A stretch of 64,000 nt of DNA from Yuukianura sp. NJ FZ-2021. Lineage: Eukaryota. Below the pieces are notes generated by a model. The model was not told where the DNA came from. It saw only the letters and a list, made by a program, of their open reading frames with translations, and made no database searches. The stretch covers positions 4,216,001 to 4,280,000 of the forward strand of contig CM102284.1 in assembly GCA_046563655.1 (NCBI GenBank), read 5' to 3'. Each line of letters begins with the position of its first letter. Within the stretch, counting starts at the first letter, position 1. Position numbers and translations under genes: made by a program. This document shows, piece by piece, positions 6,876 through 63,986 of the stretch.

Positions 6876-9524
6876 ATGGATTTTTTGGACAAACTAAGAC
6901 TGACACTAGCGTCTCCGCTCAAAAATTTTCACGGAACTCAATCCAACGAAAATTGCGCAATAAAAACGTGAGTGAAACGAAACAAAAATTCTGGAAGTGG
7001 ATTTTATAACTATTATTATTGATCTGCTTTTTTAGATGGACAGTTCCTGGTGGAAACCTTGAAGCAAATCAAGTTCGACTCCTCCTTTACCGAGACTGCG
7101 ACAGACGAGGACGAAAGTGTCTGTATGATTCACAGCATGTCATACGGGACAAGAACGGAAAATTTTCATACATCGCTACCGGAACAAATGGATCTGAAAT
7201 GAAGAATTTGTCAGAGTATATTTTTGGATGCGTACCGTTGTCCAGCAACTGCGGAACCAAACGCTTTCACAAGTACAATGGGAAATTCCTGTGGAGTCAA
7301 GTCTTTAGCGCCAAACCCTGCCGATCCGGTTCGCCCTTGTCTCGTTGCTCAATCTCAATGCCGTCCAACAATACCATTCCCGAATCAGGTAAATCTCACT
7401 CGATTTGTATGAGATGAGATGAAGATTAAAAACAATTGACTGATTACGTGATGAGATGATTCTTGATTTTACTCAGGTTCTGCTCCTACGATGTCGCCTT
7501 TGAGTCAATCTGCCAAGACTGAACTGACACCTCCGACAGATGAAGTTGATGGATGCATCGGTCGCCGACTAGGAATAATCAACTCCTTGCCAAACATTGT
7601 TCCTACCTTAACGTCTTCGTTTGGGAAATGTTTCTCTTTGCCATCTAAACTTGCCGAATCCAATCAAAAAACGTTACTGGGCCTTGGCATCATGATTGAA
7701 CCTCCTGCTGCAACCGAAAGCGATGGAAATGCCGACGGAGGCATGGGACCTTACCTTCAAGCCATGTCAGCAACGCTTGAAGAATGTGCAACTTGGTTCT
7801 CATCAGTTGCGACGCAAGCTTACTGCAACCCGGCAGCATTTGTTCAAATCCTGTATGACTTCACTACCCAATTCAAAGCCATCTTGTGTGCAAGACTCTC
7901 GAATCCACTCATTTGTCCCACGAGCTTAGTTCCTAGTTGGAGATCTCTTCCAGCCTTGACCGCTGAATTGACGCAACTCATTCTTCAAAACGACGAAAGA
8001 CACTGTAGGCTAACGAATAGAATCAAATTAGTTATAGTAGGCGGGTCCAAACGCATCAGTGAGGGTAAGAAAACAGTTCCAAAATAATGAATGCTTTAAA
8101 CGCATTGAGTTTAAAATTTTAATTGATTTTGGTTTTTAGTCGCTGGATTGCTCTACCTCTTCAAAATTCTTCTGCTTCAATGTACTCGCAGCACTGAAAT
8201 GGACGTAGGAATAGACGCGACTGCCTTTTGCAAAGACAGCGATACTTGTATTGACATCAAAGAATCGCTGCCCACCAACCTCCGAAGTAATTCAACTTTA
8301 CTAACTGGTACCAACGTTGAATCCAAATCCACTTACTGCCCCATGGCCGCCAGCTTCGCCTCTATATCATCATCATCTGCAGGAATCTCAATGTCTTCCA
8401 CAGGAATGTCCATGTTTTCAATGTCAACGCCTTCGTCACCACCATCCCCACCCGCCTCACAGCTCTCGAACAACATCCAGCAAATTGCTTTCTCCGTTAA
8501 CTGTCGAAAAGAAGACGAAAAACTTCAAAAGAGAGACTACGACTCTGGAATTGAACTGGAACTGGACCATCACAGCCAATCAGCAGTAAGTCTAGCAACG
8601 CTACCCGCAAAGTCCATGAGAAGATCCATCAGTCAAAAGTTTGACAGCGGCATGGGCAGTGGCAGTGGGTGCAGTTCTGATGAGCAGCATGGCGGACTTG
8701 AGTTATCCACGAATCCAAACTTGCGACGTTACAGTCGCGGACATCTCTACCCACAACTGAGCCATGAATTTGAGGAAGTTAGTTTTCATCTGGGAGATTT
8801 GTCTGTTGATAGCGAGCAATCGTTTAATACTTTGGCCCTAAGTGAACCGAATCTGGACAAACTGAAAACTCAAGCTGGGTCTCCGTCGTATCTAGAACCA
8901 GTAGACGCCAGTACCAAAATTGAGTGTCTGCCAATGGAACCCAAGGAAGTAAAAATCAACTTTGATGAGAGTCACGTTACTAAGACTGCCAGACCCTACT
9001 GCCCTTACTGTGACTCCATCGGACTCGTATCCAAGTTCTGTCCACTATACTACATCCAATGGGTCAAAACGACTTGCTGTAACAGTGGACTCGGAGAAGA
9101 GCAATTCAATCTAATGAAATCATTTTCCACTTCAAAGTTCATTGTGGTCAACCTGGACAAGAGTCTCATTCGAACAGTTAACTTTGACCCTAATGAAAGT
9201 TGTCGGACTACCACCCTTCCTCTTACTAGTTGTAATAGCAATATCAGTTCCAGTTTAGTGACTAATCTTCTCCATAACCTCCAACAACTACTGAATACTG
9301 ACCGCCCTGAGTGTGAAATCGATCACTTCTTACGTGTACAACTGGACTTCATTAGGAAAATTGCTCATGATTTTGGTGAGAGCTGGATAAAGGCAAATAC
9401 GGAAGACTCATCGTGTCTCAAGAGAAAGTATTCGTATTTAAGCCTCAGTGATAATGACCTCAAGCTAATTTATTCCTTGGCTAAGATGAAGTATCCAAGC
9501 CTCTCCACCCAGACTGAACACTAA
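6876..9524 (+). CDS. FNIP: Folliculin-interacting protein, about 805 aa
   Basis: Exons 6876-6967, 7036-7388, 7477-8064 and 8140-9524 splice in frame (2418 nt). Longin-region motifs QVRLLLYRDCDRRGRKCLYDS and NLSEYIFGCVPLS, and C-terminal SSLVTNLLHNLQQL and LSDNDLKLIYSLA, resemble FNIP1/2. Confidence 0.85.
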
Positions 9525-21900: not shown

Positions 21901-24900
21901 GAACGTTGTTACTGCAATTTTGTACTTGCGTCTCATTTTTTCGTTTTGGAAGTCAGATTTTTGGAATTTTCACTTTTACAGATTTTTTTTGTGGTCAACA
22001 TCCGTAACTTGTTACGAAAAGTATGAGGGGGGAAGCATGATTTTCTGCTGAATTGGTGAATTGTGATTTGGTTATTGGCAAACAAGGAAGAATTTAGCGT
22101 GTGAAATATTTTTGGTTAAAATCAGTAGTGGTATTTTACCGTTCAATCGACATTTTTTTTTTTTGCAAAGAGAAGTAAAATGCATGACTGCTGAGACCAC
22201 TGCCACAATTTACAGATATTTCTGTGAATCATTTCTTTTTTTCTATTTTTCCCAAAGTTGGACGTGTTTTGTTCTGCTGATTGTGCTTTTGAAATTTAAA
22301 AGTCCAAATGCAAAACTACCCACTTTGGATATTTTATGCATCAAATTTGATGCATGTTTTTGTGTTCAGGAGATATGATGCTTTTGTGATTCTGTGCTGG
22401 GTATATCCGTAGACGAAATGCATTGTTTAGTACTTCCGCCGGAACTTGGTTAGGGGTACCCCTCCTTGAAATCCTTGGAATAAATAGACTTTTGAGAATC
22501 ATCGTTGGTCGTATACTAAATAATTACCTTTGCTTTGGTCGTTAAGAGTTTTGCAATTGGTTGGTAAATCTCATGCTCATGTTAGTTTTGGACGTGGAAG
22601 TTCAAGTCATTGGCTAATTTTAGAACAAAACTCTTTTTGGAATTAACTTTTTGTAAGTCTTTGAATTTGAATTATGCCGTGGAAGTTGATGGGAATTGAC
22701 AAGATGAGTTATGAATTATGAAAATAATGAAATATGAATGGGAAGAACAAAAGAAAAAAGGACAACAAAGAGATATGATCACGATTGATTGAGGAAGATT
22801 GGAGGCAACATGGACGATGATTGCTCAATGCCTCCTGGATCTAATGTTTCTTTCTGCACATCTTCCTTACTTGTAGAGTTGTAGAAGAGTGAGTGAGCAT
22901 GAAAGAAATTGGGAATTTGTTATAGTGTATGAGGGGGGATTCGTTTTGTTATGTCTTGGCACATTTACGTTCATTGACACTTGAGAGTTGAGAGCGAATT
23001 TAGTGATGAAATATTGATTGATTGGTGATTTGTCGAAGAAAATAACTTTTCTTTTGGTTTTTGTAGCAGAATTAAATCAACTTGAATTCTCAAAAAAGAA
23101 GTAGTTTTTACGCAATATTTTTGTGAGTTCGAGTATCTCTGTGCTGATATTTTTTGAGTATCAAATTTTTAGCTCCTATTCACTATGACTATGAACTTGA
23201 GCCTTGTACGTTGATTGACGTGGAGTATTTTGATACCACGAATTGACGTGATGCAGAATTTTAATTTTGGCGATTTCAGTTCTTTAACCTCTTGAACCCT
23301 AAATACGACTTTAGTAAGTACTTTCTGTGCGGGCTCAGGGGCCTGAATACGACTATAGTCGTACTTTCTGTGCGTGCTCAGGGGCCTGAATACGACCAAA
23401 GTCGTACTTTCTGTGCGTGCTCCGGGGCCTGAATACGACTTTAGTCGTATTCTGTTTCCCTGCTCAGGAGCCGGACTACGACTATTGTCGTATTTTTTTT
23501 TGAAAAAAAAAGAAACGTTTTGTGAAATCTTATTGGCACGGATTCTTTTCGAAAATGAATTGAAAATCTTTTTATAAAAGAAAATTTTTAGAAAATTGAA
23601 AAATCGAAATTTTTTAAATTCTGATGCGTTTTTTTTAAAGAAAAAAAATTAAATTTTAACAACACCGTAAAAACGTATTCCAACGTAATTCGAATTTCTT
23701 GGCCAAAATTCTAATTATAACAAATATTCAAAGTGAGAAAGTGTATTCTTGGGCACATATCACCATTTCTGGATTAGACTATTCTTGATCAGACTTTTCT
23801 GGATCAGACTTTTCCGGATCAGATTTTTCTAAATAAGACTTTTATGGATCAAACTTTTCTGGATCAGACTTTTCTGGCTCAGACTTTTCCGGATCAGATT
23901 TTTCTAAATAAGACTTATGGATCAAACTTTTCTGGATCAGACTTTTCTGACTCAGACTTTTCTGGATCAGACTTTTCCGTATCAGATTTTTCTAAATAAG
24001 ACTTTTATGGATCAAACGTTTCTGGCTCAGACTTTTCCGGATCAGATTTTTCTAAATAAGACTTTTATGGATCAGATTTTTCTAATTAAGACTTATGAAT
24101 CAAACTTTTCTGGATCAGACTTTTCTGGCTCAGACTTTTCTGGATCAGACTTTTCCGGATCAGATTTTTCTAAATAAGACTTTTATGGATCAGATTTTTC
24201 TAAATAAGACTTATGGATCAAACTTTTCTGGATCAGACTTTTCTGGCTCAGACTTTTCCGGATCAGATTTTTCTAAATAAGACTTTTATGGATCAAACTT
24301 TTCTGGATCAGACTTTTCTGACTCAGACTTTTCTGGATCAGACTTTTCCGTATCAGATTTTTCTAAATAAGACTTTTATGGATCAAACGTTTCTGGCTCA
24401 GACTTTTCCGGATCAGATTTTTCTAAATAAGACTTTTATGGATCAGATTTTTCTAATTAAGACTTATGAATCAAACTTTTCTGGATCAGACTTTTCTGGC
24501 TCAGACTTTTCTGGATCAGACTTTTCCGGATCAGATTTTTCTAAATAAGACTTTTATGGATCAGATTTTTCTAAATAAGACTTATGGATCAAACTTTTCT
24601 GGATCAGACTTTTCTGGCTCAGACTTTTCCGGATCAGATTTTTCTAAATAAGACTTTTATGGATCAAACTTTTCTGGATCAGACTTTTCTGACTCAGACT
24701 TTTCTGGATCAGACTTTTCCGTATCAGATTTTTCTAAATAAGACTTTTATGGATCAAACGTTTCTGGCTCAGACTTTTCCGGATCAGATTTTTCTAAATA
24801 AGACTTTTATGGATCAGATTTTTCTAATTAAGACTTATGAATCAAACTTTTCTGGATCAGACTTTTCTGGCTCAGACTTTTCTGGATCAGACTTTTCCGG

Positions 24901-27900
24901 ATCAGATTTTTCTAAATAAGACTTTTATGGATCAGATTTTTCTAAATAAGTGGATCAATGGATCAGACTTTTCTGGCTCAGACTTTTCCGGATCAGATTT
25001 TTCTAAATAAGACTTTTATGGATCAAACGTTTCTGGATCAGACTTTTCTGGCTCAGACTTTTCCGGATCAGATTTTTCTAAATAAGACTTTTATGGATCA
25101 GATTTTTCTAAATAAGACCTTTATGGATCAAACTTTTCTGGATCAGACTTTTCCGGATCAGATTTTTCTAAATAAGACTTTTATGGATCAGATTTTTCTA
25201 AATAAGACTTATGGATCAAACTTTTCTGGATCAGACTTTTCTGGCTCAGACTTTTCTGGATCCGACTTTTCCGGATCAGATTTTTTTAAATAAGACTTTT
25301 ATGGATCAAACTTTTCTGGATCAGACTTTTCTGGCTCAGACTTTTCTGGATCAGACTTTTCCGGATCAGATTTTTCTAAATAAGACTTTTATGGATCAGA
25401 TTTTTCTAAATAAGACTTATGGATCAAACTTTTCTGGATCAGACTTTTCTGGATCCGACTTTTCCGGATCAGATTTTTTTAAATAAGACTTTTATGGATC
25501 AAACTTTTCTGGATCAGACTTTTCTGGATCGATCAGACTTTTCCGGATCAGATTTTTTTAAATAAGACTTTTATGGATCAAACTTTTCTGGATCAGACTT
25601 TTCTGGATCAGACTTTTCTGGATCAGACTTTTCCGGATCAGATTTTTCTAAATAAGACTTTTATGGATCAGATTTTTCTAAATAAGACTTATGGATCAAA
25701 CTTTTCTGGATCAGACTTTTCTGGATCCGACTTTTCCGGATCAGATTTTTTTAAATAAGACTTTTATGGATCAAACTTTTCTGGATCAGACTTTTCTGGA
25801 TCGATCAGACTTTTCCGGATCAGATTTTTCTAAATAAGACTTTTATGGATCAAACTTTTCTGGATCAGACTTTTCTGGCTCAGACTTTTCTGGATCAGAC
25901 TTTTCCGGATCAGATTTTTCTAAATAAGACTTTTCCGGATCAGATTTTTCTAAATAAGACTTTTATGGATCAAACTTTTCTGGATCAGACTTTTCTGGAT
26001 CTGACTTTTCTTCATCAGACTTTTCAAGATAAGACTTTTATGGGTCAAACTTTTCTGGATATACAAAATACATTAAAGAGGTAATGTATTGTTTACGGCA
26101 TATAATATGTGTATATGTTATATTATCCACATAATATAAATAATAATAATATGTTATTCTTATTATTATCATCATATATTACCTTGTTGTAATATATGGT
26201 AAGTACAGTTATTAGCAAGTTTTTGGAAATTATGTTGCAGTACGGCAAGAGTGTGGGTCATAATCCCACCCATGACGTAAATCACTCTTTGCGGCGAAGC
26301 CCCAGTAAGCACGCGGAGCAGCCTCGGCATATTCAATATTTATGCCAGTGGTTAGCATATAATATTATTACAATCAAAAATATTGCACTCGTCATGAAAA
26401 GTTGAGAAAATGGTTTTTGGTTGTCAAAAAAGTGTAAAATATGTTCTCAGAAATGCATTTTGTAACAGTACATAATTTGAATTTTGCTTAAAAGGGACGA
26501 AATACTCCGTCCTTTTTAAGCAAACACTTTCTCGGAAAACTCTTTTTTGGTTTTTTTTTAAATTCTTGATTTTTTTTAAAAAAAAAAAAAAAAACCGCGG
26601 TGTATGTACATGTAGTAAGGCAATGGACAAGAAACTCCAGAATTTTTGTATCATATTATTCCAAAAAAAAATCGGAATTTGTGTCAAACTAAAGTGTTGC
26701 TGAAAAAGTGCAATTTTTACAGTGTTGATGTTTCAGAAAACGTTGTAGCTGCAGTTGTAAACAAGTGAGAGTAGGGCTAATTTGTGTTGTTGGGGTTCGT
26801 AGTGCGAACTTCGCACCATCATCAATTGCGTTTTTCGACGAGAAGTGAGAACCTTGCTTAAACTGTGAAACTACTTTGTACTTTGTTTTTTGTTGCGGTT
26901 GGATTAACTGGGCAGCTAAAACTAATTCAAGGATAGACCATTGAGTTGTAACTCAAAATGTTACTTTTTGGTGAAGTTGGCGTAGCGAAGCAGTATTAAT
27001 TTTATGAGACTTAATAACCTAAGACTAGGGTTTCCGACGTGTGTTGAACAAGCAAAATTTTATGGGCACACAAGACTAAAAGCTAACATAAGTTAGGATG
27101 ATGGATGACCTCTATCAAAACAGAACCCACTCTGTCAAAAGCTTTTGCCAAAATTTATTCATGCCAAATTTAGTGGTCAGACGAAGTCGTGCTGTTGCTG
27201 TTTGTTGGAATAATCGAATCATGCCATATTGTATTGATGACAAAATTGGTAGTGGCTATTTATTAAGGGCAGCAGGGGTCATTGTATGGGTTGTTTATAC
27301 AATTTAATATTTAATGTCCAAGTATCAAGTTTAATGTCTCACGTCCAACAAAAGACTTATTGAAGGTTCCTGGCATAAATTGGGTTGAGTTGAAGTTCTG
27401 GTTCGATAGTTTTGCAATTAAAAGTCTATTTTTGGGATATCATTAAATAGGAGCTATACCGAATTGGCGGAAAACGACGAAACTTTCACCGATCAATTTC
27501 GTGGAACTAATGTTTTTTAAAAGGTTTCAGTTGAAATTAATTTTTTTTTTTTTAAATTTGACAAAATTTATTTCTTTTCTTTTCCGTTTTGGTGCAAGAC
27601 CTTGGTTTTCAACGTTTTTGTTGTTTGCTTGAATAATTATAAGTTAGTAGATTTCGTCAAGTTCTTTTCCTGGACATAGATGGGAGTCCTCACTGTCCTC
27701 TTTGAGGATTCCTCAAAGAGGACAGCTTTTTTTCAGAAATTGAAGTTTGAGGATTTGAGGACTGAAAATTGGGTGAGGATTGAGGAAAGAGGATTTGAGG
27801 ACTGAGATCTGAATGAGGAATGAGGAAAGAGTAATTGAGGACTGAAAGTAAAATGAGGAATGAGTTTTGAAGAATTGAGGATTGAGTTTGGCGTGAGGAT

Positions 27901-36754: not shown

Positions 36755-36893
36755 TAGTATTTTTAAGTGGGCGTGGTTTGTTATGACGTCTGTCTCTTTT
36801 TCCGCAGTTCCAGAGTGTTTCGATTTTTGAATTTGGCGTGTTTTGCTTTTTGTTGTCTGTGTTTCTCCAGTTGACCTCTAATAACTTTTCAAT

Positions 36894-39800
36894 ATGCGTG
36901 TAAGGTCAGCACTGTTGGACTGTATGCATTTAGACCCGGGCTACGCCCTTCTGTCCGTGCAAAACTGTGTATCGTGTCTGGAAATGTTTCGAATGATGGA
37001 TATTCACGTAAGGTTTCCAAAAAATGTTGATCATAAACTTTCCTTTGCGTTTTTTAAAAATTCTTATGAAAAATATTTCAAATATTGTTTATTTTGTTTT
37101 CTTTCCTGCCGTCTAGAACAATGCTTCCCTGAACGGTAAATGATTTGATACAAAATCAATATCAGTTTAGTTTCGAAAAACATTGGTAAGTCTTTTGTTG
37201 TTTGTTTTTAGATTTCCAGTTCAGGCAGTTCATGCGATCGTTTACGGATTTGAACAATCATCAAGCGGACACTCTGTTTGAACTACTGGACATTGATCAT
37301 TCAGGAGAAATGGAATTCGAAGAGTTCTATCTCGTTTTCTGCATTATGGTTTCCTGCAAGGTGGACTTCAAAAAGAGAAATTTAAAAATAAAAACCGAAT
37401 TTTAAAAATCATTCCTATGATTTCATATTATTTTCTTAGGACCAATATGAAAAAGAGTTCATCTACCGTCATTCCACCAACATTTTCAGACTGATTGACG
37501 CTGATGATTCAGGGCTGATCTGTGGTCCAGAATTTATGCAAATGGGAGTTCTTTTCAACTTTGACTACAATTCAATCCACTCTATCTTTGACGAATTTGA
37601 TGTTTCCGGAGACAAAAATTTGGATTTTATGGAATTTCGAGTCGGTGATAAACGAAATTCTACAAAAAAAAATTGTGGAAATTCTAAGTTCCGACACTAC
37701 TTTTGATATTCAGCTCTTCACAATGGCTTGTATCGATGAACAGCGCTGCGCAGATGCACTAACTCGTGTCCGTGTCCTTACAAATTATCATTTGAAACTG
37801 CTGAAGGCTTTGGAATACTTTGTCCGAATGTACATCATAACCCAAGTACGTTTGTACTTTAGTGAATTAGCGGATTTCCTCCAACGTGAATTAATCTGAT
37901 ACTCTTTTTTTTTAAATTTTATTTGTTTATAGAAAATTCCAACACCGGCACACCTTCAAGGTTAGCTTACAGTTAGTTCGGCTCTTAACAAATATACGGA
38001 TACATTTTCAGAGTTTTAGTATTCAAGCGTGGAAGATTTTTTGATGTTATAAAAAATTTTCATATTTTTTTAAAGTTTGACAAGCAAAGATCCGGTTTCT
38101 GTCACTTTCTTTTCCCGAGATATGAATTTCCAAAGATTTTGCAAATAAAATATGGAATGTTCCAAAATTTTACAATTTATAACTAAAAATAAAAATTTGG
38201 AAAAGTTTAAAAACGAACTAAACAGTTTTGGTATTTTTTGAGGAAATCCCTGAACCTTAGTGTAGGGATTCTACTTTTCTACTCAAGATCTGATAAAATT
38301 TGGAACTCCATTTTTTTTTGCAAATTTTTTGCACTAAATTATGTGAAAAGATGTTTTGTAACTTGAGTCCAGCGATGGGGTCACAGAAATCGCTGCAAGT
38401 TTGAAATTTTTAGAATTTTCTAAAATCGGAATTGTAGTTGTGTTTTTGAAAGTTTTTGAAGAGTCTTTTACATGGGAGGCTTTTGTGAGAGGAGAAAAGT
38501 AGACAGGGTATTATGCGGAGCAAAGGGGCAGGTAGCCCCTCTCTGCTTTTGGGATTTTTGTATGGGGAGACCACCAGCGGCAAAAAAGTTGAGAAAGTAG
38601 AAGAACCTTTTTGGTTCGCTGAATCTCCGCATAGTTCCGGACAGTTTTTCAGAGAGCCTACCACTTCTCAAAGTAAAATCTCTTTCCAAAATTTCAGAAA
38701 ATTAAAAAACTTTAAAAATTCATATCTCAGGAACGGAATGCAATAAATTGCCAATTTCATTCGCGACTGATTTGAGAATGATCTTAAGAATATTTTAAGA
38801 CCTAAATTGAAATTCGAATTAATTTTAAACAAAATCACTGAACCTAGTCCATGGATTTTTTTTTTCCAATTTCATCAAAATTTTGAAGATGCGTTTTTTT
38901 GCACCAAATTACATGAAATACAGATTGGCACAATGAACTGAGCGCTGGATCACAAAAATCGCTTCAAAATTGAGGTTGCAAAGTTTAGTTTAACGAAAAT
39001 AAAAGTTTTTTTTTCTGATTTAGTATAGACGCTAGTTGAAATTTAAAATAATTCAGTCCATGAATTTCATATAGGTACACCTTATGTGAAATTATTAATT
39101 TTGCATTCAGCTTTGGGGAACTCTCTGAAAATTCATCGCTTTCTCAATTTCCAAAATTTTGGAAAATTTTGAAAGTTAATTTTTTGGAAACTATTTCCAG
39201 CAAATTAAGCGCAATGTTGTTTTACAATTTGACTCGGCTGACGCTGGCGGGCCTACGGCATTGCAAATTGTTGCAATTTACTGCAAAACTGCTGAAGTTT
39301 TTAAAACGCACACATTATTTTGAGTGTGCGTTTATTTGCACTAATTTGTGCGAGATGATGTTTTGCAACTTGAGTCAAGCGATGGAGTCACAGAAATCGC
39401 TGCAAGTTTCAAATTGTTTGAATTTTAGAAATTGGGAATTATGCTTGTGTTTTTGAAAGTTTTTGAAGAGACTTTTGCATGGGAGGCTTTTGTGAGAGGA
39501 GAAAAGTAGACAGGGGATTATACGAAACGAAGAGGCAGGTAGCCCCTCTCTGCTTTTGGGATTTTTGTATGGGGAGATCACCGGCGGCAAAAAAGTTGAG
39601 AAAGTAGAGGAGCCTTTTTGGTTCGCCTAATCTCCGCATAAGCTCCGGACAGTTTTTCAGAGGAGCCTTTAACCTCACAATGTTAAATCTCTTTCCAAAA
39701 TTTCGGAAAATTAAAAAACTTTAAAAATCCATATCTCAGGAACGGAATGCGTTAGAAAGCTAAACTCTGCACGGCTAAATTCAGAATGATCTCTTAGAAT

Positions 39801-42800
39801 ATTTTAAAGCCAGAAAAACCGAATTCGAAAATTTTACAAATTTTTAACAAAATCACTGTCCATGGATTTTTTTGTCTTTCTTCATAATTTTGGAGGTGCT
39901 TTTTTGCAGTAAATTACAAGAAATACTGTTTTGAAACAATGGACTGAGCGCTTCATCACAGAAATCGCTGTAACGCTGAGAATTCAAAGTTTTGTTAACG
40001 AAAATGAATTTTTTTCTAAATTGGTTTAGACGCTAGTTAAAATTTAAAATAATTCTCTCTATGCATTTCATACAGGCTTACCATACCTGAAATTGTTAAT
40101 TTTTCATACAGCTTTGAAGCACTTTCTGAAAATTCGTTGTCTCACTTTTCAAAATTAATTAGACACATTTTTTTTTCAAATGATTTTTTTTCAATTTGAA
40201 CACAATAGAACGGTATAATGTAAAATGTATTCACAAACGTTTTGTTATTTGGACTTTTTTATACTCATTATAACACGACGCGTTCATCGGAGACATTGAT
40301 GAAAAACTTGATGTTCGCTATTGGAATTCTTAAAATTTCTAACAATTCTTATTTTTTTGAAAGTACAATTGTAGCGTCCCAACGAAGAAGGGCGTAACTC
40401 GGATTTTGAAATTTTTTTTCCCTTCGAGACGAAAAAAGTAAACAAATTTCGCCAAAACTCGGAATCAAAAATGTCTGCAGATTTCGATTTCAAAAATGTA
40501 ATTAGAAATCGCTTTAACAAAGTATCGATAGTGCAAGTAACTTTTTCCCTCAATATCTTCGTATTTAGCAAAGTAGCGAAAGTGCAGAGTATTTTTTCAT
40601 TGTATTCACAAAAACTTTGGAAATTACTGAAATAGTTTGCGCACCCTCATTAAACTGTTGCAACTGCTTTGAAAATTTTCAATTGACATTGACGAAAGGA
40701 ACTGAAAATTATTTAAGGAAGCCAATTAATCAAAGTACACATCCAATCCAGCCTCACTAAACCTAGAGAAGGGCCAAAGTGGGGAAGGGAGTTGAGAAGT
40801 CAATGTCAACTTGATTCAGAGAACTCAAGTGTTTTCTGTGAGGTCAAACTTTCGCACATCACTTCTCACAGGCGCCGAACTCATATAACTTCAAATTTTC
40901 TCAAAATTTTCGAATATGTATCTTCAATGATATTAAAAGATCAGCGAGACGTAGACCGACTGGAATTTAACCGTACAATATAATAATAGCTCAGCATTAA
41001 GGCGGTTTTCTAAAACAAACTCAACGTAACCGAGTAAGCCCCGTTTTACGCGTTAATAGTGATCAAATCCTGGTCATGATATGTTCATTGGATAACCGAA
41101 ACGACATCATCCAGTAGTTTCTGAGTAGTGTGGCTGGTTTTTTCCAGCGTTGCTGTAAGCTTAAACGTCCAGTGGCTTAGTTGCCACATATCCACTGGAA
41201 GAAATACACCAAAAATGTAAACTTTTAGTGGAGGTAAGAAATCAAAAATCTAGCGCGAAATTTAAAAAAAAATTAAAATTACAAAATAACATCAAAAAGA
41301 GTTTCTTTCATCGTTAAATTTAATAATTTATTTATAAATCATACAAAAACGTTATTTCCTTCGTCTCGTACGGTAATTCGAATAGTTTAGGCTTTGTATC
41401 TAATTAATGTAAACCCTGAGGGCAACGCTACGCCGCTTTTGGTTCATCTATTTTGTGCATTTCTTCCACTGGATATACAGCCGTGGACGAAATCTCGCAA
41501 AAGTGGATTTTTAACAACACCGGTTTTTTAAAAATAAAACCAAAAATACCTAGTTTTAGTTAAAGCCATGATTTATTTGGCTTTTCTCGGTTTAAAGTTT
41601 AAACCAACATCAAAAACTCGATATTTCTCAGAAAATGAATCTATACTTTAGAACTATTTAATCCGTTGAAATTCCATCCACTGATTTCAGTTCCAACAGT
41701 ACCTTAACAATGTGAAAAAAGCGTTAGAACAGTAATTTGGGAAAACATAAACGAGTTAGTACAAAAGAGCGAATGAATTTCATTCAAAAACAAGACTTTT
41801 CTGTTAATTCAGTATCCCCTTTTTCCCATTTACTCATGTTGGTTTAAACCTAATAAATGTGAATAAAAACCGCTCGGTTTAAATCGTGGTTTAAACCATG
41901 GTTTGGATCATTTCTCCTAAACCAAGGCCACCCTGTTTCTAATAATTAATCCGGACAGACAGATAGACATGAATAATATTATAATAACAGCGCCGCAATT
42001 ACAATAATCTTAACAGCCCCACGAACATTACAACACAGCTCGCCCAAACAGAATGACACACAGACAGACACGTGAATATCATAACATGAATCTTTTGAAA
42101 AAATTTTTGGAGATGAATTCGGTAATTTTGTTGCCGACTCTTGTTAAATTTTGTTTACGTTTTTTCTTGGCAACGCAAGTCGTCATCGCGTTTTGAGGTA
42201 CGCCATTCTTCGTCGGAGCTATAGAATTTTTAATTTCAAAAACTTTCAAAATTGATATCTCTGGAATGAAAAGCGATAGAAACCTAATCTTTTCGTCACA
42301 AACTTTGGGAATGATTCCTTTGGGAAATAATTAACTTCACGGTGAAAGCCTCACTGTTTTTTTTTCATTGTAGGGTTACTAGCGAAAATCCCGGATCCGT
42401 TTATTCCTGAAACCAGGCGCCGCTACAGCTTCTTCGACACGTCCTTCATCTGGGGGAAATTGACTGGCAATGGAGCCCTAATCCATCGTGTCAAGGTCTT
42501 TCAAAACTGGTCCTACAAATTCTTGAGATGTCTCTGCTGTTGGTTCTGTTGCTGTATCTTGGGAAGGAAGCTCAAGGCCAAGGTCAAAGACAGTTCTGGC
42601 TGGAAATGCTGTCGAAAGTATCGACGACGACGCTACGCAAAACGACTGATGAAGAGTCGCTTGTCAACTAACTTGAACAGAGCCAGCCGAATGCAACGAC
42701 GCAGGAAAGAGAAACGGAAGCAACGGAGACTAGCTAAACTGGGAAAGGAGAAGGGAACAGCATGGTGGCAAAACATGCGGCAGCGATTATTCAAAGCTAA

Positions 42801-42966
42801 GCAAAACGAATCAGAAGAAGAGCACACGGAAAAGCGTGGTTCTAAGATGGCACCGAAACGACAAACGCAGACGGGAAAAGCAGTGCCAAAACCTGTACCA
42901 GGGAAGGTGGCATCCAAACAGGAAATCCCTTCCGAGGATGCACCTATAATCGGAGAGACAGTATAG
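36894..42966 (+). CDS. EFCAB9: EF-hand calcium-binding domain-containing protein 9-like (CatSper Ca2+-sensor homolog) with C-terminal extension, about 411 aa
   Basis: Exons 36894-37007, 37117-37135, 37212-37360, 37440-37640, 37714-37845, 37933-37960 and 42374-42966 splice in frame (1236 nt). MHLDPGYALLSVQN, LFELLDIDHSGEMEFEEFY, EFIYRHSTNIFRLID and IFDEFDVSGDKNLDFMEFRLFT parallel mammalian EFCAB9. Confidence 0.82.
38320..40160. repeat. Diverged ~1-kb tandem duplication (repeat-element-like) in EFCAB9 intron 6
   Basis: GGGAGGCTTTTGTGAGAGGAGAAAAGTAGACAGG at 38474 and 39481; ATATCTCAGGAACGGAATGC at 38722 and 39731. Paralogous spurious ORFs at 38410-38664 and 39375-39590. Confidence 0.85.
41191..41473. 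mobile_element. 283-bp MITE with TA TSD
   Basis: TA|TCCACTGGAAGAAATACAC ... GTGCATTTCTTCCACTGGA|TA: 19-bp TIR with 2 mismatches. Confidence 0.65.
41515..41935. mobile_element. Truncated hAT-like MITE remnant
   Basis: Repeated GGTTTAAACC subterminal palindromes, ending ...GGCCACCCTG (the reverse complement of a CAGGG start). No matching left TIR or TSD found. Confidence 0.4.
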
Positions 42967-43541
42967 TTTAGCCAAGGCCTCCAAAAACGTTCTACATACA
43001 TTTCAAAACGCGTTCAATTTTCAATTTGTGAATTTTAGCACTTGCTTGGCACTGTTCTCTCTTATTTTTTTTCAATTTAATGAAAAATGAAATGACAAAA
43101 AAATGCAGATTGTGTCTTACGAATTTTTTTTAAAGTTACCCAACAGAAAAATCGTGTAAAATTAGAAACGGAGGTGAAACTGATTGGGATTATGAAATTG
43201 CAGTTTAATTAATAATTAAATAAGTTTAAATTCATATGAATTTATGCTCAACACGGGACGCTTTTACACCAAAACCAATAGCATATAGGGATAAGTACTG
43301 TGCATTTTGAAGTTGGAGCATTCATGTGCCACATCATCTGCTGGCGGAAACACGCGTCCACTTCTACGCAAGGTGAAAAAAATTCAAGTTGACTTTTTCA
43401 AATCAAAACTGAAAGTTAGTGGATTTGAATCACATAGGGATTCAGAATTGGAGACCGGTATTTAATTAAGTTTTCGATTAATTTGTAATCACGATTCACG
43501 AAGCCTTAACATTAAAAACCGAACTTGCAAGCTTTGTCAAC

Positions 43542-44468
43542 ATGAACGCCGTTACATTCGTCCTCGTCGCTCTTTTTGCTACAGTTTACGGTAAAAACGT
43601 TAATCTTTTAGTGAATTTATTATTAGGTATATTATTTGTTTTCTAGTTGGATCTTATGGTAAAATTGGAAAAGTAATTGTTGCTGTTTAATCTCTTGTAA
43701 TTCTGATTATTGAATTGTTTAATTTGTGTTGCAGGAACCAGCTGTCCTTCACCAACTGTGTCAGTACTCAAGGGATACACCACGACAGATGCCTCAGTCC
43801 TCAGCGCCATTGCTTTCATAAGTCAATTTGACCTCAAATGTAACGGATCTCCAGCTCCAGCGACTGCCAACTTTTATGCTGAAGGTAAACTAAATACTAC
43901 TTGATTTTGGTTTTGTTAACCTGAATTTGGATTTGGTGTATTTATAAACTATTTTTTTAGTTGGTGGAAAACACTTGAACGTTGTCAGAAACTCTAAGGG
44001 ATCCTACCAGGTCAGTTGGACAGAAGAAGTAGCAAGAGCCTCCCGTGGCGACTACAAAATTAACATTTACGATGAAGAGACATTCCCACAAGTCCGAAAG
44101 GTAATTTCTTAGAAATACTTAATGGGACTCAGCCTGGTAATATTAACCGTACTCTTATAGTTAAGTTAAATTCGGCTTAACAGTTAACATCGGAGAGTAT
44201 TCTCTCTGGGGTATCTGTTTCTAAATAAGTTTTCAGTTTCTGCTTGTTCGAATCCGAGAACTCTAAACGTCGACAAAAGAGATAATTGGAATTTCTTGTT
44301 TGATTTCTTCAGGGAAAAGGCGAGCTTCCACAACCTTTGGTAACCGTAACACTGAACCATCCGGGAGCATACACTGGCCCGTGGCTCAGCTCCGAGCACT
44401 TGGCAGCCATTCTTGGGGTTTTCGTAGTGTACATCGCCCTCACTTGCAGATCCAAACTCCTTTCTTAA
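43542..44468 (+). CDS. SSR4: Translocon-associated protein subunit delta, 168 aa
   Basis: Exons 43542-43590, 43647-43658, 43735-43884, 43961-44100 and 44313-44468 total 507 nt. Signal peptide, YTTTDASVLSAIAFISQFDLKC, YQVSWTEE, HPGAYTGPWLSSEHLA and a C-terminal TM helix. Confidence 0.93.
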
Positions 44469-45227
44469 GTTCGTTAAGTGACCAGCATTTACCATTGTTT
44501 CCAAAATAAAGTGCTTCAATTCTAAAGGAAACCTAAGCGAATACTTTTCAAATTAAATACGGCTCATTAATCAGCGTTTTAAGATTTCTAATTGTCATTC
44601 AACTAGTTTATACAGTGAATTATTGCGAGTGTGGAGATGGACACAACCGTTCCTCTTTTGCTGTAAAAATTTCCGCGGGAGTTACAAAAGTTTGCAGCTT
44701 TTGCATTGCATGGCATTGCATTGGTGGGTGAATCGGTTCATTTCATTGCGGTAATCACCGACCGGTTTTTTCGTTAAATCTTCCTGCTCGGAACTTTCAT
44801 TCATCATCTAACATCTGCAAACTGCAACCGTAATTAAAAGTGGTAATTCGCAAATTCGTTGGACATTCTCGATCTCGATTCTCCTTAGATACACAGGTAA
44901 CTGGTGTGAAAATCAAACAGTAGTCTGCACTTACCTGAACGAACAGGACGACTTTCAACTTTCAGAATTCACCATCTTGAGGAACGGTAAACCCAAATTT
45001 CACTGTCGATTACCTTCATTACGATAATCTCTTGCGAAAATATCCTGGCATGCTTTCTCCGATGTCAGTTTTGAAGTGTAAATTGGTCATTTACGGAGAT
45101 AAGTATGCAATCACTTCTTACCTTGTCAAAGTAAATTAATCGTCTTGCTATTTCTTTGCACAGAAACATACGTTACTTTTCAATTACACAAGAAAGTCAA
45201 CTGTAAGCAAACTTGATCGACTGCAAA

Positions 45228-46326
45228 ATGACGGAGGATACGAAGATGACTTCGCGATGGGCTGATGAAATTGAAGACGAAGATGAACAGTACATTTCCA
45301 CTGCACCACAAGAAGTACTTGTCAAGGATGGAGAACGAATGGTGACGGAAGTTGTAGTTGATCCAGATACTGGAAAAAAGAAGAAGATCATTAGAACGTT
45401 TAAACTGGAAAAGAAATTCGGTAAGTCTTAAATCAAAGAACGCTGCGTCCTCCACATTGTTCAATTACGCAATGCTCACCTTGAATTTCACATTTTATAG
45501 TTTCCAAGGGCGTTATTGAGAGAAAGCACTGGGTCAAATTCGGTGCTTCAAAAAGAGATGCCCCTGGTCCAAACTCAGCAACCACCGTCGTTGGTGACCC
45601 TGTCTCAATGTTCTTTCTCGGTACCAAGGAAGTTGACGTTCAAGATGACTTCAACAAAGACTTGCGAGATGGGAAAGGCTTCGTTCGCTGCAGATACTGT
45701 CAAGAGAGTCACTTTAGTGCAAAATGTCCCTACAAAGATGCTGGAATATCAACAGAATTTCTTTTGTCTACAAAGGATCTGGCGGAAGACAAGAAGGTTC
45801 TAATACAAATCTTTTTCACAACTATGCTTTCGATATCAACAGAATAATACGATTCTACGGTATCGTTTTAGGATTCTGAAGCTAAGCCCGGAGTATTTGT
45901 GCCACCTCATGCTCGTCGTGGTGGAGATATTGGACGACGTGGTGAGATGATGGGTTCGAGTACTCGCAAAGATGAAACTACAATCCGAGTATCCAATCTC
46001 CCCGAATCCATGTCGGAAACGGACTTGCAGGAACTATGTGGTCCATTTGGCAAGATCGACCGGATATTCTTGGCCAAGGATAGGTAAGTCTCAATTCACA
46101 CATTTCAACCAATCTCAATGCCAAAGTCAACGGTACTGAATCAGCAAAGTATCTCTTGTTAAAAATGTCACTTTTTACGCATAGGGCAACTGGAGTTTGT
46201 AAAGGATTTGCGTTCGTGACCTATGCGATGAGACCCAATGCCACAATGGCTCTTCGTGCCCTCAACGGTTATGGCTACGACCACCTTATTCTTAACGTGG
46301 AATGGTCCAAACCAGCAGCAAATTGA
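45228..46326 (+). CDS. EIF3G: Eukaryotic translation initiation factor 3 subunit G, 280 aa
   Basis: Exons 45228-45420, 45501-45796, 45872-46083 and 46185-46326. WADEIE, RKHWVKFG, zinc knuckle CRYCQESHFSAKCPYKD, and RRM TIRVSNL...CKGFAFV...LNGYGYDHLILNVEWSKP. Confidence 0.95.
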
Positions 46327-46919: not shown

Positions 46920-49900
46920 CTATTGGCTGCCTTCCTCTGAAGCATCTCCGTCCTCTTTACGCAGCAACAAAGCATTCTGTGGTCCTGGAGTCGCCACTTC
47001 ACCACCTCTGTAGCGAACCAGCTGCTTGTTGTGGTAACTCAACATTCTGAAATTGGGGTAAATCAAAAATTAATTAGATCATAAGCAAAATATAATTATT
47101 GATTAATCAAACTGTTTCACATACTTAAGCCAGTCTTTATAGAACCCCACGTCCTCGTCTGAATTCGAACGTTGGATTTCCAGCGCCACCCAATTAATAT
47201 TATCCAAGGTTTTCCTCCCAAGGTTTCTCACGCTCTGGAAGAAAGAAGAGTTCGAATACTAAATTCTTCTCGACTTTTGAAGATTTCGGATCTTAAAATG
47301 TTTTCAATTCGTACCTGAGACCCCTCCTGGCTAAACGGCTCACTGTCTGTTTCAAGAACAGAAGCCGAACCCGAATTGTGACGCTTGCGGCGTTTTGCAG
47401 GCACAACAGCGGTTTGGGTAGTCTGAAGTCCATATGCAGCTCGTGAGGTGCTGGGACGCACAGCTTGATCAATGTTTGCAGCAACTCCTGGCTCAGCGCT
47501 TCGTCCTTGTGTAATTCCAATCTGAGTCCCACCACATTCCAGTTTGAGCCGAGGGCGTTTTGGCTATTTTCAAGAAATTGCTTATTACGAGATTACGACT
47601 AGACATTAAAACATTAGAACTGAAAGATGTTAAAGGTCATACATTAGTTTCCAGAGTGAAATCCTGTGAATCCTCCGGAAGATCAGGAACTTCTTGTTTG
47701 AAGTTCCTTGGCCTGGTTCCAGTAAGTTGTGTACTCAACCACTTATTGCGATCAGAAGTGGAGTCCCGTCCGGGACATTTGCATATTTTCAAATTATAGG
47801 CTTGTCGGCCCAATTCGTATGTCCTGAATATTCAAATCAAAAGAAAACAACAAAATTCAAAAAAATTGTAATTCTTCAGCTTCTAAAAAACTTCAGCAAC
47901 CGCTCGACCTCGGATAATTTTCAATATGGTCACGCAAAACTCAACACACTGTTACGCCTGGTTTATAGTCTCACTTTTCACTTCACTTTTGTGCTGAACT
48001 TCACTTCCTCCGTCACTTTGTCGTATTTAGAGTACGAAGTGATGAGGATGTGATCATCCCTGTCTCACTTTCGTTTCCTCCTCACTTCCTCTTTCACTCG
48101 CTGCTTATTTTGAGTTTCACTTTCATATCACTTCGTCGTCACTTTTCCTTCACTTTTTCAAAGTTGAACTGAACTCAACTTTTCTCAAAGTGACGGCGGA
48201 GCGAAAATTGAATGTATTCATTTTTACTTTTTCAGTTCATCTCTGATTTGTTCAAAAACGACTATTTTTGCAAATACGATGGACAATTAATGCTGTCAAT
48301 AATGTTGACCCCATTTTATTTTGGAAAATCAAAATTAACTGACAAAAGTCCGAACACAGCTGATTTGTTCACTTTGGGATTTCGCTTTTTCTATTTATAC
48401 TTTTGGCAAAGTGAATTGACAATGAAAGTGAAGTGACCACGACATGACATTGTAGTGAAACTGTATGCCTAATTTATAGTTCACTCGCATGAAAAGTGAG
48501 GATGAAAGCGACATAACAGTGAAGTGAGCATGAAGTGAAGAGTGAGACTATAAACCAGGCGTTAATTTCCAATTCGTGGAGGTTAGATGTTATAAAACAT
48601 GCGATCTCTTACCCGTATCTCAAATAGAACATCAAAGTCCAATCCCGGCTTTCTTTCAGTTTCTCTTTGACCGGGCACGAACTCAGGCACATGAACTTGT
48701 AATTGCGTTTCATAGTGTACTTGGTAGAGGTAGATCCACCCTGGCAAAAACGTTAGATTCGATCAGCACCTCTTTTTCGTAATCCATTTGATGAAGATAA
48801 ACGAACCTGAACCTTCTCGAGCGGTATTTCAACGCATCGATGAATTTTTCGCTTCGGCTTATAAACGGCTTTTGCACTATCGCAGCGGATGACATGACCG
48901 CGGATACCTTTAAAACAACAAAACAAAGAAACAGTTAGCCCGATACGATCTGATTTTTTTATTATCAAATAGGGTATTACTATGTCCGTTTTCATCCAGC
49001 GGTGGGTTCTTCTCCAGTTTCTGACAGTTACTGCACTGCTTTACGGCCTCCTGAACGACCAAAGCGTTCGCCGTGAAGTAAATAACAGCTTGAACTTTGA
49101 GCTGGCGGTAGGTAACGTTAGCCTTCGTAAAGTCCAAATTGATGTTGAACATAACAGGTTGATTGTCCTTGCAGTAGATCTTGTTCCTCTCCGCCAAGTA
49201 GACGCATTGTTGCTTGTTAGAAACCAATTCCGGGGTCACGGTGAAGTTCAAAAGACCTGGAAAGGAGTCCAACAAGGGAATCCGGTTCCCTTGACTCTGA
49301 CTATCATCCTGACTCGAACTTGAATCAACCCCATCTCCATCATCATAGTGAAATTGGTCCAATTGTTCATCTGATTGTCGTGATTGTACAGATCCTTGAG
49401 GGGTTTCCAATACCAGGGGTGGCTCTGCTTTCACCATTTGGTAAAGAAAGGGACCTTGATCTCCGTTCCCATCAGAGTCATCGACCGGTCCAGCCGACAG
49501 CGGCGGAGTAGGGTTTGAAGAATCTGAAAATTAATAATTTAATTCTTCAGTTTGCAGCGTAGCGATACCGTGAGTTGGAGATTAATTCTAATTTATTGTG
49601 TAACTTGCATTGTACAGCTACCGGTGCTGGTGTCAAATCTGGAAACAAGTTGTCCACGTCCGCCTCATACGAATCGTTTGCCAGTTGAGCAAGTGAAGCG
49701 CAATCGGATTTAGCACTGACCAAAAAAAAATGGACAGTTACGTTGACTTAATAGTAACTGATTATAATAAATTCTTGTTCGTGTAAATGTCGTTGTACCT
49801 TCCAATTCTAGGGTCAGGTCCCGTATTTCCTCCGTTTCCTACGTCCAGTGGTTGCAAACCCACTCCAATGTACGGATCGTTTCGACTAACATAGACTGAA

Positions 49901-55445: not shown

Positions 55446-57030
55446 ATGGTAAGAAATTGGTTTCTTAATTACTGGTCATTGTTTTAATACGTTGTGTTAG
55501 TGTATAGATAGATATTAAGCGTAGGGATTAGTTATAATCCTGATTTTTTTTTGTGAATTTTTTTGATTTTGTGGTGATGACCCGAGGTCATTGTGGAAAT
55601 ATAAAGAGTTATGAGTTTTATTTTGGATTTCAGTCGGAAGGTACGGCGACAATTCGGACGAGGAAGTTCATGACTAACCGGTTACTGGCCAGACGTCAAA
55701 TGGTAGTTGATGTTCTTCATCCTGGCAAGGCATCTCTCCCTAAGACAGAAATCCGAGAGAAATTGGCCAAATTGTACAAGACTACCCCAGATGTTGTATT
55801 CTGTTTTGGATTTAAAACAGCATTTGGAGGAGGTCGTAGTTCAGGATTCGCTCTCATCTATGATTCCCTGGACGTAGCCAAGAAGTTCGAACCCAAATAC
55901 AGACTGGCTAGGGTATGTCAATAGTTGTAATTTATAGCCAGATTCTGTTTTCCAGTGTTGAAGTTTGGGCACAGCTTTAGATCCCAATTCGAATGGTTAA
56001 TGCCACATTCGAGGTGGGAGTCGGACCTGTGCGAAATTGATTTCAACGAGCTGCTTGCTAAATTCAAGTCTGTTCTAGCTTGAGTTCGCAGCCCTTGAAA
56101 CAAAATACTGTTAATTCATAAACTTATGTACATTGACAGTATTTTATTTAGATACTTTTCAATTCCTTTCCAACACTTCAGTTCAGTTAACACCTAATCG
56201 TTTTGTTTTAATTTTCGTAGCATGGACTCTTCGAGAAGGGAAAGACGACACGCAAGCAGCGCAAGGAAAGGAAAAACCGAATGAAGAAAGTTCGGGGAAC
56301 GAAAAAGTCCAAGGTCGGAGCAGCGACGAAGAAGGTTAGTTTTCCTGAACTTTTCCATATTCTTACTATTACTTCATAAATTATTTTAGATAAATTGTAA
56401 GTAGCAGTCCATCGTCTATCGAATAATTAAGCTTTAAGGGTTGCGGCTTGGGTATGCTTGTTTGGTAGCTAAAAGAGTGAATGGTTGATGAATCGCGAAA
56501 AATCATTCTCAATGAACTAAACTGTAATTTTGTTTGTAAATCTGCTGCGATCAAGCGAGGAAAGTAAACCAGCAACAACGTCCCTGCGATTCGATCAAAT
56601 TTCAAACTGGTGAGGGGTTGCTGAGTTGGTGTGCGACTTTATTATGTGTTGATTTTGTGTTAGGTTTTCGCTTTGCTTTATTTCAAGCTTTTTAATTAGA
56701 ATGTTTAGTTAATTTGTCTTAGTTAACGGTACTTACCATATTTGAAGGGCACAGCTTTTAGATCTTGTTTCACCAGGCGTTCTTGCCTCATTGTGACTCA
56801 AGAGTCGGATCTGTGCAAAAGTAAAGTGTGGAGTCACTAACTTCAAATTAAGTTCGAAATTGAAAAACTTGAAAGTGATTTCATTCTACACCTTCCAATG
56901 TCTAGCTATAATTCCTTTTTCGTTAAGTTTGTTTTAGTTTAGTTTGATTTTGTTGTGAAGTTTTCTTTAAGATTGTTGATAGGTTGTCGATAAATCTTAA
57001 TCAATGATTTTTGTTTTATTTTTGCAGTAA
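55446..57030 (+). CDS. RPS24: 40S ribosomal protein S24 (eS24)
   Basis: ATG-only coding exon 55446-55448, exons 55634-55912 and 56221-56334, and a final exon starting with TAA (57028-57030). [26 protein letters not shown]...[14 protein letters not shown]...[14 protein letters not shown]. Confidence 0.97.
55967..56105 (+). ncRNA. Candidate box H/ACA snoRNA in RPS24 intron 2
   Basis: Hairpin 1: GCACAG/CTGTGC lower stem, 7x7 internal loop, TCCCA/TGGGA and TCGAATG/CATTCGA upper stems. Imperfect H box (AAATTG). Hairpin 2: TTCAA/TTGAA and AATTCAAG/CTTGAGTT. ACA at 56100-56102. Confidence 0.55.

Positions 57031-57704: not shown

Positions 57705-63986
<6,282 letters not shown>

What the first reader, a model, noticed from the sequence alone, without database searches (positions are those of the whole stretch)
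37714..42966. EFCAB9 fused to a ~230-aa tail with a Cys cluster and polybasic tract
Seen: no stop right after the EF-hand region. The donor at 37846 splices in frame via a 28-nt exon and a 4.4-kb intron to exon 42374-42966, encoding FLRCLCCWFCCCILG, then KCCRKYRRRRYAKR...RRRKEKRKQRRLAK. Established: human EFCAB9 is about 200 aa and relies on mammal-specific CATSPERzeta; Cys clusters next to basic tracts are typical palmitoylation/membrane anchors. Inference: a self-anchoring EFCAB9 whose tail may replace a zeta-like partner, i.e. a possibly undescribed invertebrate CatSper architecture.
Basis: partly seen in the sequence, partly recalled or inferred. Interest (0 to 1): 0.72.

Follow-up and report, generated by a model that had tools for sequence, protein, structure and literature searches.

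The report
Springtail sperm calcium sensor, cysteine tail
In springtails, the calcium-sensing subunit of the sperm calcium channel appears to carry a long extra tail with a cysteine cluster that probably fastens it to the membrane, a modest and apparently undescribed twist on a known protein.

Summary
The window encodes a 7-exon, 411-aa EFCAB9 (the CatSper Ca2+ sensor), most likely of a springtail. The join via the 28-nt exon to exon 42374 ranks 1 of 45,188 possible AG/GT chains against three springtail orthologues; the read-through form scores -14 against 28. About 84% of the 4.4-kb intron is repeat DNA. All 4 other springtail EFCAB9 models found have long Cys-bearing tails; Priapulus has none. 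The shared tail pattern is a Pro-rich linker, a helix and Cys clusters. The polybasic tract is not shared, and the last exon alone is only weakly similar to the orthologues. Support is comparative, from predicted gene models. Best reading (0.55, inferred): a multiply S-acylated membrane anchor on the sensor. The 'replaces zeta' idea is unsupported: no zeta-like sequence, fold or conserved IQ-like motif was found, and a 2025 paper reports non-mammalian CATSPERzeta found by HMM. Springtail CatSper genes are already in databases; I found no paper on the tail in 8 searches.

The parts
36894..37007 (+). Exon 1, ATG, EFCAB9 N-terminus (38 aa)
   Evidence: aligns with orthologue N-termini; tblastn-type match of P0004 1-40
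37117..37135 (+). Exon 2, 19-nt microexon in the degenerate first EF loop
   Evidence: a 19-nt exon lies at the same place in metagenome contig L004
37212..37360 (+). Exon 3, EF-hand with canonical loop
   Evidence: same 149-nt length in L004
37440..37640 (+). Exon 4, EF-hand pair
   Evidence: Pfam EF-hand; best PDB hit mouse EFCAB9, E 1e-8; 72-73% identical to springtail proteins
37714..37845 (+). Exon 5, end of last EF hand and long C-terminal helix; Priapulus EFCAB9 ends about here
   Evidence: helix 157-193 in the O. cincta model
37846..37899 (+). Intron 5 read-through, 17 codons to a stop (possible short 222-aa form)
   Evidence: scores -11 to -19 against springtail orthologues
37933..37960 (+). 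Exon 6, 28-nt microexon, start of the Pro-rich linker of the tail
   Evidence: used by all top 12 of 45,188 chains
38311..40117 (.). Intron 6 repeat family A (about 1-kb direct duplication)
   Evidence: copies about 71-86% identical, many on C2
40355..42236 (.). Intron 6 repeat family B, about 1.9 kb, imperfect inverted repeats near the ends; probably a non-autonomous DNA transposon (inference)
   Evidence: two 99% copies on C7, others 82-92%; arms 40432-40470 / 42126-42164
42374..42966 (+). Exon 7, 197 codons plus stop: most of the tail
   Evidence: GC 0.49 against 0.34 in the intron; single copy in G000
42529..42555 (+). Cys cluster, C267 to C275 (6 Cys in 9 residues), in a predicted helix; candidate S-acylation site
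   Evidence: Cys clusters at the same distance from the EF hands in Orchesella and Folsomia
42604..42738 (+). Second Cys pair (C293, C294) and polybasic helical tract
   Evidence: Cys pair matched in the alignment A3; basic tract not conserved

Best explanation
This is the single EFCAB9 gene of a springtail, part of a CatSper sperm Ca2+ channel that springtails retain. In the springtail lineage a tail was added at about the old C-terminus, at the exon 5/6 border. Shown by sequence: EF-hand domain with three canonical-looking loops, long helix, Pro-rich linker, helix, hydrophobic Cys cluster, second Cys group, then a fast-evolving low-complexity end. Inferred: a zDHHC enzyme S-acylates several of the Cys, which lie in a helix too short in uncharged residues to span the membrane here. 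The acyl chains, helped in this species by the basic helix, hold EFCAB9 on the inner face of the flagellar membrane beside the channel. The EF hands would still sense Ca2+ and act on the channel as in mouse. The tail would add membrane attachment to that module, not take over the EF-hand-binding job of zeta.
For: EFCAB9 identity. CatSper context: CATSPERB and TMEM249 Pfam hits over cut-off in G000; source data of PMC12638846 list Efcab9, Armh2, theta, Catsper1/3/4, beta, delta and gamma for Folsomia and Orchesella. Splice model: rank 1 of 45,188; best acceptor by pyrimidine tract and open frame among 323 AG sites; ungapped register of the Pro-rich linker with 4 of 4 springtail proteins. First 100 tail residues against orthologues: 8, 3, 53 and 0 of 500 shuffles reach the score for O. 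cincta, O. dallaii, Folsomia, Allacma. Tails of 162-351 aa after the last EF motif with 7-23 Cys in 4 of 4 other springtails; 66 aa and 0 Cys in Priapulus. Longest uncharged run around the cluster is 12 residues here, 13 in Folsomia, 10 in Allacma. AF2 places the cluster in a helix (pLDDT 66-78 for residues 31-60 of the exon). Precedent: yeast CYSTM proteins, whose Cys-rich 'TM' helix proved to be a palmitoylated anchor (PMC10840359 abstract).
Against: No acylation is shown; no predictor was available. The orthologue tails are predicted gene models, and two have visible faults (O. dallaii is fused to XRCC3 and lacks the EF N-terminal half; Allacma has a 15-aa insertion). The last exon alone is barely similar to them: 101, 36, 32 and 6 of 500 shuffles reach the score; profile E 1.3 for the exon and 0.059 for the joined tail; no hit by BLASTP, word search or phmmer over 1.84 billion proteins. 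Allacma has one Cys at the first cluster and its CCC lies among charged residues (best hydropathy 0.68). Orchesella has uncharged runs of 19 and hydropathy 1.92, compatible with a true TM helix; Orchesella and Folsomia have 7-8 CxC and CxxC motifs each, compatible with metal binding. Pfam models of CatSper gamma, delta, delta/epsilon C-terminus and ARMH2 gave no match in G000 (weak negatives for an intron-rich genome).
Confidence: 0.55

Rival explanations
1. The tail is real, but its Cys bind Zn or form disulfides, tying EFCAB9 to structural elements of the sperm tail in the manner of Cys/Pro-rich sperm-tail proteins (Drosophila Mst87F family, ODF1, SMCP; recalled, not tested here).
For: 20-23 Cys with 7-8 CxC and 7-8 CxxC motifs in Orchesella and Folsomia; His-rich stretch in Orchesella (12-13 His).
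Against: Cys number and spacing are not conserved (7 to 23; CxxC 0 to 8), unlike a metal-binding fold. In the window the Cys sit among Leu, Phe, Trp and Ile in a helix flanked by Lys and Arg. No Pfam family on any tail.
Confidence: 0.17
2. The tail is a tolerated, fast-drifting extension, or does something unrelated to anchoring (sorting, mRNA or protein stability); the Cys are not under selection for one role.
For: Beyond tail residue 110 the window shows no similarity to orthologues (375, 239 and 58 of 500 shuffles reach the score); tail lengths vary twofold.
Against: The Pro-rich linker keeps its register in 5 of 5 springtail proteins whose first 205 residues are only 55-76% identical where compared; first Cys cluster at offsets 95-109 in 4 of 5; Orchesella against Folsomia tails 0 of 500 shuffles.
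Confidence: 0.1
3. The main transcript stops in intron 5 (222 aa, ordinary EFCAB9 length) or does not reach exon 42374, which then belongs to something else.
For: Read-through gives a protein of normal size ending about where Priapulus EFCAB9 ends; AATAAA at 38144 and 38188; the last exon has no detectable homologue by itself.
Against: Read-through scores -11 to -19 against orthologues where the spliced form scores +11 to +20 over the same 17 residues; exon 7 begins with a strong acceptor, has no Met until far inside its frame, and the next gene has its own start; the intron is about 84% repeats. AATAAA/ATTAAA is common in this AT-rich intron (12 sites in 38144-41862). A minor short isoform is not excluded.
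Confidence: 0.1
4. One reading: the tail folds back on the EF hands and does the job of CATSPERzeta.
For: The zeta column is empty for Folsomia and Orchesella in the source data of PMC12638846 (OrthoDB-based); the tail has amphipathic helices that an EF-hand lobe could grip.
Against: The zeta column is also empty for the tail-less Priapulus and the other invertebrate rows seen, so lack of annotated zeta does not track the tail. Non-mammalian zeta exists by HMM. No zeta hit, no compact fold, no IQ-like motif at a shared position, although zeta needs one to bind EFCAB9 (PMC8147001).
Confidence: 0.08

Closest known systems
Springtail EFCAB9 models in NCBI/UniRef: Orchesella cincta ODM97307.1 (441 aa), Folsomia candida OXA50237.1 (520 aa), Allacma fusca CAG7837865.1 (346 aa), O. 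dallaii CAL8083282.1
   Same: 55-58% identity over the first 205 aa for the three full models; same linker register and Cys-bearing tail. Two are already named EFCAB9.
   Different: Tail sequence has diverged to near-undetectable; fewer Cys than Orchesella and Folsomia; long basic helix shared only with Folsomia.
Mouse EFCAB9 (216 aa; PDB 7EEB, 9LWO) in the ARMH2-EFCAB9-CATSPERzeta subcomplex
   Same: Best PDB hit by sequence and by fold; collinear EF-hand domain and long C-terminal helix.
   Different: About 195 aa shorter, no tail. In the alignments seen, the springtail EF loops 2 and 3 look more canonical than the mouse ones. Mouse EFCAB9 and zeta are interdependent for expression (10.1101/459487).
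Priapulus caudatus EFCAB9-like XP_014662555.1 (237 aa)
   Same: 45% identity over 170 aa; C-terminal helix aligns up to the end of exon 5.
   Different: Ends there; no Cys after the EF hands.
CYSTM/CYSPD palmitoylated Cys-rich helices (PMC10840359); by recall also other lipid-anchored EF-hand sensors (KChIP, CBL, trypanosome FCaBP)
   Same: Works like: a helix of 5-6 Cys among hydrophobic residues that anchors by acylation.
   Different: No sequence relationship found; cluster is internal, not C-terminal; the lipidated EF-hand sensors recalled are anchored near the N-terminus.

Membership tests
EFCAB9 | Best match is EFCAB9, not calmodulin, calcineurin B or PDCD6 | tested here: met
   Exon 4: EFCAB9 E 9.7e-9, next family 1.9e-6; orthologue P0004: 1.9e-42 against 3.1e-9; Atlas top three clusters are EFCAB9
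EFCAB9 | Degenerate first EF unit plus three conserved EF hands | tested here: met
   Loops at 36, 71, 114, 148; the last three have Asp at 1 and Glu at 12; family description in 10.1101/459487
EFCAB9 | Fold like mouse EFCAB9 | tested here: met
   Tested on the O. cincta orthologue model only: top Foldseek hits 9lwo_A and 7eeb_I, E 7e-9, next 3e-5
EFCAB9 | Co-occurs with other CatSper genes | tested here: met
   2 of 6 CatSper-subunit Pfam models hit G000 over cut-off: beta, theta; gamma, delta, delta/epsilon C-terminus, ARMH2 no match
EFCAB9 | Length about 200 aa, ending after the C-terminal helix | tested here: not met
   411 aa; Atlas EFCAB9 representatives 203-212 aa. This is the variant feature, not a bar to orthology
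EFCAB9 | Testis-specific, flagellar, bound to CatSper, Ca2+/pH sensing | not testable with these tools
   Needs expression, localisation and biochemistry
CATSPERzeta (for the tail) | Sequence similarity to zeta | tested here: not met
   5 PDB hits at E<=10 for exon 7, none a CatSper chain; single-sequence search, so a remote homologue could be missed
CATSPERzeta (for the tail) | Compact helical lobe (recalled from the 7EEB structure) | tested here: inconclusive
   Two long helices, pTM 0.28, no Foldseek match; O. cincta tail pLDDT under 50; alignments of only 4 rows
CATSPERzeta (for the tail) | Conserved IQ-like motif that binds EFCAB9 | tested here: not met
   Loose pattern found once in the window tail and once in Folsomia at different offsets, in 0 of the other 3 springtails
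CYSTM/CYSPD | Helix with 5-6 Cys among hydrophobic residues | tested here: met
   6 Cys in 9 residues in a predicted helix
CYSTM/CYSPD | Small protein (60-150 aa), Cys helix at the C-terminus, Pfam match | tested here: not met
   Cluster is 136 aa from the end of a 411-aa protein; no Pfam family on the tails
CYSTM/CYSPD | S-acylation | not testable with these tools
   Needs acyl-RAC, ABE or click labelling

The most novel reading that the evidence does not exclude
Springtails, among the few hexapods that kept CatSper, rebuilt its cytosolic module: a lipid-anchored EFCAB9 holds itself at the flagellar membrane and supplies, through its own tail, the stabilising or row-organising role that needs zeta in mammals. 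Reversible S-acylation (and His-rich or basic segments) would then be a new way to tune the channel's Ca2+/pH sensor when stored sperm are activated.
Probability: 0.15. Interest if true: 0.72.

Novelty: new variant of a known kind. Interest (0 to 1): 0.42.

Why it matters
How EFCAB9 is held at the channel outside mammals is open, and mouse EFCAB9 is unstable without its partners. A lineage with a built-in membrane anchor would show another way to couple the Ca2+ sensor to CatSper. It is testable in lab-reared springtails and in cell lines with the tail alone. The gene family, its presence in springtails and long protein models are already in public data, so the gain is a domain-architecture observation and a hypothesis, not a new system.

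Tried and rejected
RNA: no RNA holder was listed for 36850-43100; no reads could be laid. This is no evidence either way. Complex prediction of O. cincta EF domain (1-200) with its tail (205-330): no verdict, score 0.01, alignment not used; no evidence either way. Homologues of exon 7 alone: none among 472 candidates of 344-2000 aa, none in 1.84 billion representatives, nothing meaningful in PDB, Pfam or, for the O. cincta tail, the ESM Atlas. Metagenome scan: 14 loci, 1 a close relative (L004, 83% over 146 aa), whose contig ends before the tail; the other 13 (26-54% over short stretches) were not followed. Tree of 6 rows: only window + L004 is supported; springtail order not resolved. One search's L004 rows used wrong exon bounds and were discarded; one search corrects them. 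One search failed on a script error; one search repeats it. O. dallaii was left out of the junction scoring matrix (near-duplicate of O. cincta) but kept in the tail profile and shuffle tests. The EF-region homologue search used E<=1e-15 and lengths 190-606 aa and gave 4 proteins among 210 candidates, so it cannot show that long tails are absent elsewhere. Rejected: a transmembrane helix in the window protein (12 uncharged residues, hydropathy 1.25); acceptor 40699 (weak, in a repeat); exon 7 as part of the downstream gene (TRAP-delta with own ATG); a second EFCAB9 copy (one locus, plus one weak 31% EF-hand match elsewhere). Earlier-findings look-ups by sequence and by words gave nothing.
Full report
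Observation. A gene model read from the window by coordinates has seven exons (36894-37007, 37117-37135, 37212-37360, 37440-37640, 37714-37845, 37933-37960, 42374-42966), all GT-AG, in frame, 411 aa. Without splicing at 37846 the frame stops at 37897-37899 (222 aa).

Identity. Exon 4 has mouse EFCAB9 as best PDB hit (E 9.7e-9; next family 1.9e-6). Its closest proteins are from the springtails Allacma fusca and Orchesella dallaii (72-73%). A second search added Orchesella cincta, Folsomia candida and Priapulus caudatus. The window's first 205 residues are 55-58% identical to the three full springtail models and 45% to Priapulus over 170. The O. cincta protein hits mouse EFCAB9 at 1.9e-42 and its model matches 9lwo_A and 7eeb_I first. 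The genome (G000, 98.7 Mb) has one such locus and Pfam hits over cut-off for CatSper beta and TMEM249/theta; four other subunit models gave no match. The animal is therefore most likely a springtail (inference).

Is the tail really joined? Evidence is comparative. Counting without gaps from a motif at the end of the last EF hand, the first 17 residues after exon 5 score +20, +20, +11 and +13 against the four springtail proteins in the spliced form and -12, -12, -11 and -19 in the read-through form. That exon drives most of the score: with it fixed, acceptor 42374 leads 205 candidates by only 28.0 to 25.3. Two independent features settle the choice. Of 323 AG sites, 42374 has the best pyrimidine tract among YAG sites and the longest in-phase frame, while the runner-up is a weak AAG inside a repeat with a 20-codon frame. 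About 3,690 of the 4,413 intron bases belong to two repeat families with copies elsewhere in the genome, which explains the intron's size. The downstream gene is TRAP-delta with its own start. Against: exon 7 alone finds no homologue, a four-sequence tail profile gives E 1.3 for it and 0.059 for the joined tail, and the orthologues are predictions, two with visible faults. I put the spliced form at about 0.9.

What is shared in the tail. All 4 other springtail proteins found continue 162-351 residues past the last EF motif with 7-23 Cys; Priapulus continues 66 with none and ends about where exon 5 ends. Shared: a Pro-rich linker in register, a helix, a first Cys group at offsets 95-109 (window, both Orchesella, Folsomia; one Cys at 87 in Allacma) and a second group at 110-135. 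Not shared: the polybasic tract (+14 per 30 residues here, +13 Folsomia, +8 Orchesella, +7 Allacma, +8 Priapulus) and the end of the tail, where the window shows no similarity. For the first 100 tail residues 8, 3, 53 and 0 of 500 shuffles reach the window's score against O. cincta, O. dallaii, Folsomia and Allacma; for the last exon only, 101, 36, 32 and 6. AF2 gives exon 7 two long helices, the first holding the Cys cluster, with no compact fold (pTM 0.28) and no structural match. The O. cincta tail is below pLDDT 50.

Mechanism. Best reading (0.55): multiple S-acylation of the Cys helix anchors the Ca2+ sensor to the flagellar membrane. Shown: the sequence pattern, its rarity in the window (2 places), its recurrence in springtails, and an uncharged run of 12 that is too short for a transmembrane helix. 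Inferred: acylation, localisation and any effect on gating. Precedent: CYSTM/CYSPD proteins (PMC10840359, abstract and outline seen). Rivals: Zn or disulfide tethering (0.17), a drifting or otherwise acting extension (0.10), no join or a short main isoform (0.10), zeta replacement (0.08).

The zeta idea. The 2018 preprint 10.1101/459487 (passages) calls zeta a recent mammalian addition and shows EFCAB9 and zeta are interdependent in mouse. PMC8147001 (passages) shows zeta binds through an IQ-like motif. PMC12638846 (passages and sections 6, 7, 8, 25) adds ARMH2 as a third partner and states that an HMM search found non-mammalian zeta missed by BLAST. Its Supplementary Fig. 2b, which would name the species, was not among what I could read, and this bears on the claim. 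Its source data (searched, and part 9 of 16 of file 5 read) list Efcab9, Armh2 and most CatSper genes for Folsomia and Orchesella, with no zeta entry for them or for tail-less Priapulus. The tail shows no zeta similarity, no shared IQ-like motif and no confident lobe.

What is in print. Springtail CatSper appears in data tables (PMC13674862 passages list O. cincta CatSper1). PMC6660944 (passages) reports patchy CatSper in arthropods. 'CatSper' with 'Collembola' returned 0 papers. Seven further searches (listings only, apart from the six papers named) showed nothing on an extended or acylated EFCAB9; 'palmitoyl' does not occur in the two main texts where I looked. Subscription papers are mostly outside the library. 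Earlier notes of this scan report CatSper2, CatSper3, delta/epsilon and theta genes in this genome; these are unchecked leads, and only theta was partly tested here.

Verdict. A real EFCAB9 with a springtail-wide Cys-bearing tail: a new variant of a known kind, interest 0.42. The bold reading, a self-anchoring sensor that reorganises the cytosolic module of CatSper, is not excluded (0.15).

Noticed in passing
window 40355-42236: About 1.9-kb repeat with imperfect inverted repeats near its ends and two 99% copies on C7: probably a recently active non-autonomous DNA transposon.
   Followed up: partly
window 38311-40117: Second repeat family, a 1-kb direct duplication, with many of its copies clustered on C2 at about 5.0-6.6 Mb.
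   Followed up: partly
P0004 and P0002 (Orchesella), about residues 355-371 of P0004: His-rich stretch where the window and Folsomia have a basic tract; could be a pH or Zn-sensitive segment, as proposed for the His-rich CatSper1 N-terminus.
   Followed up: no
P0002 (Orchesella dallaii CAL8083282.1): Database model joins an XRCC3 domain to the second half of EFCAB9 and is named XRCC3; probably a chimeric gene prediction.
   Followed up: no
window 37212-37640: EF loops 2-4 have canonical Asp/Gly/Glu positions in all springtails seen, more so than the mouse loops in the alignment; Ca2+ affinity may differ.
   Followed up: partly
L004 2148-2827: Metagenome contig with a close relative (83% over 146 aa) and identical exon lengths 114, 19 and 149 nt; ends before the tail.
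   Followed up: yes
window 43542-44469: TRAP-delta (SSR4) gene directly downstream.
   Followed up: partly
window 23766-26060: Array of about 154 copies of a 15-bp unit inside a long stretch of positive GC skew (about 18-34 kb); it gives spurious repeat ORFs.
   Followed up: no
window 48910-49530 (-): Exon with a p53 DNA-binding domain match at the Pfam cut-off (E 3.8e-6).
   Followed up: no
window 45485-45847 (-), 55544-55924 (+): eIF3g and ribosomal protein S24 exons.
   Followed up: no
window 58198-58593 and 63630-63986 (-): Homeobox exons that look like Pitx (label recalled, not tested).
   Followed up: no
window 8127-9524 (+): 465-aa open frame with a weak FNIP C-terminus match (E 0.035).
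   Followed up: no
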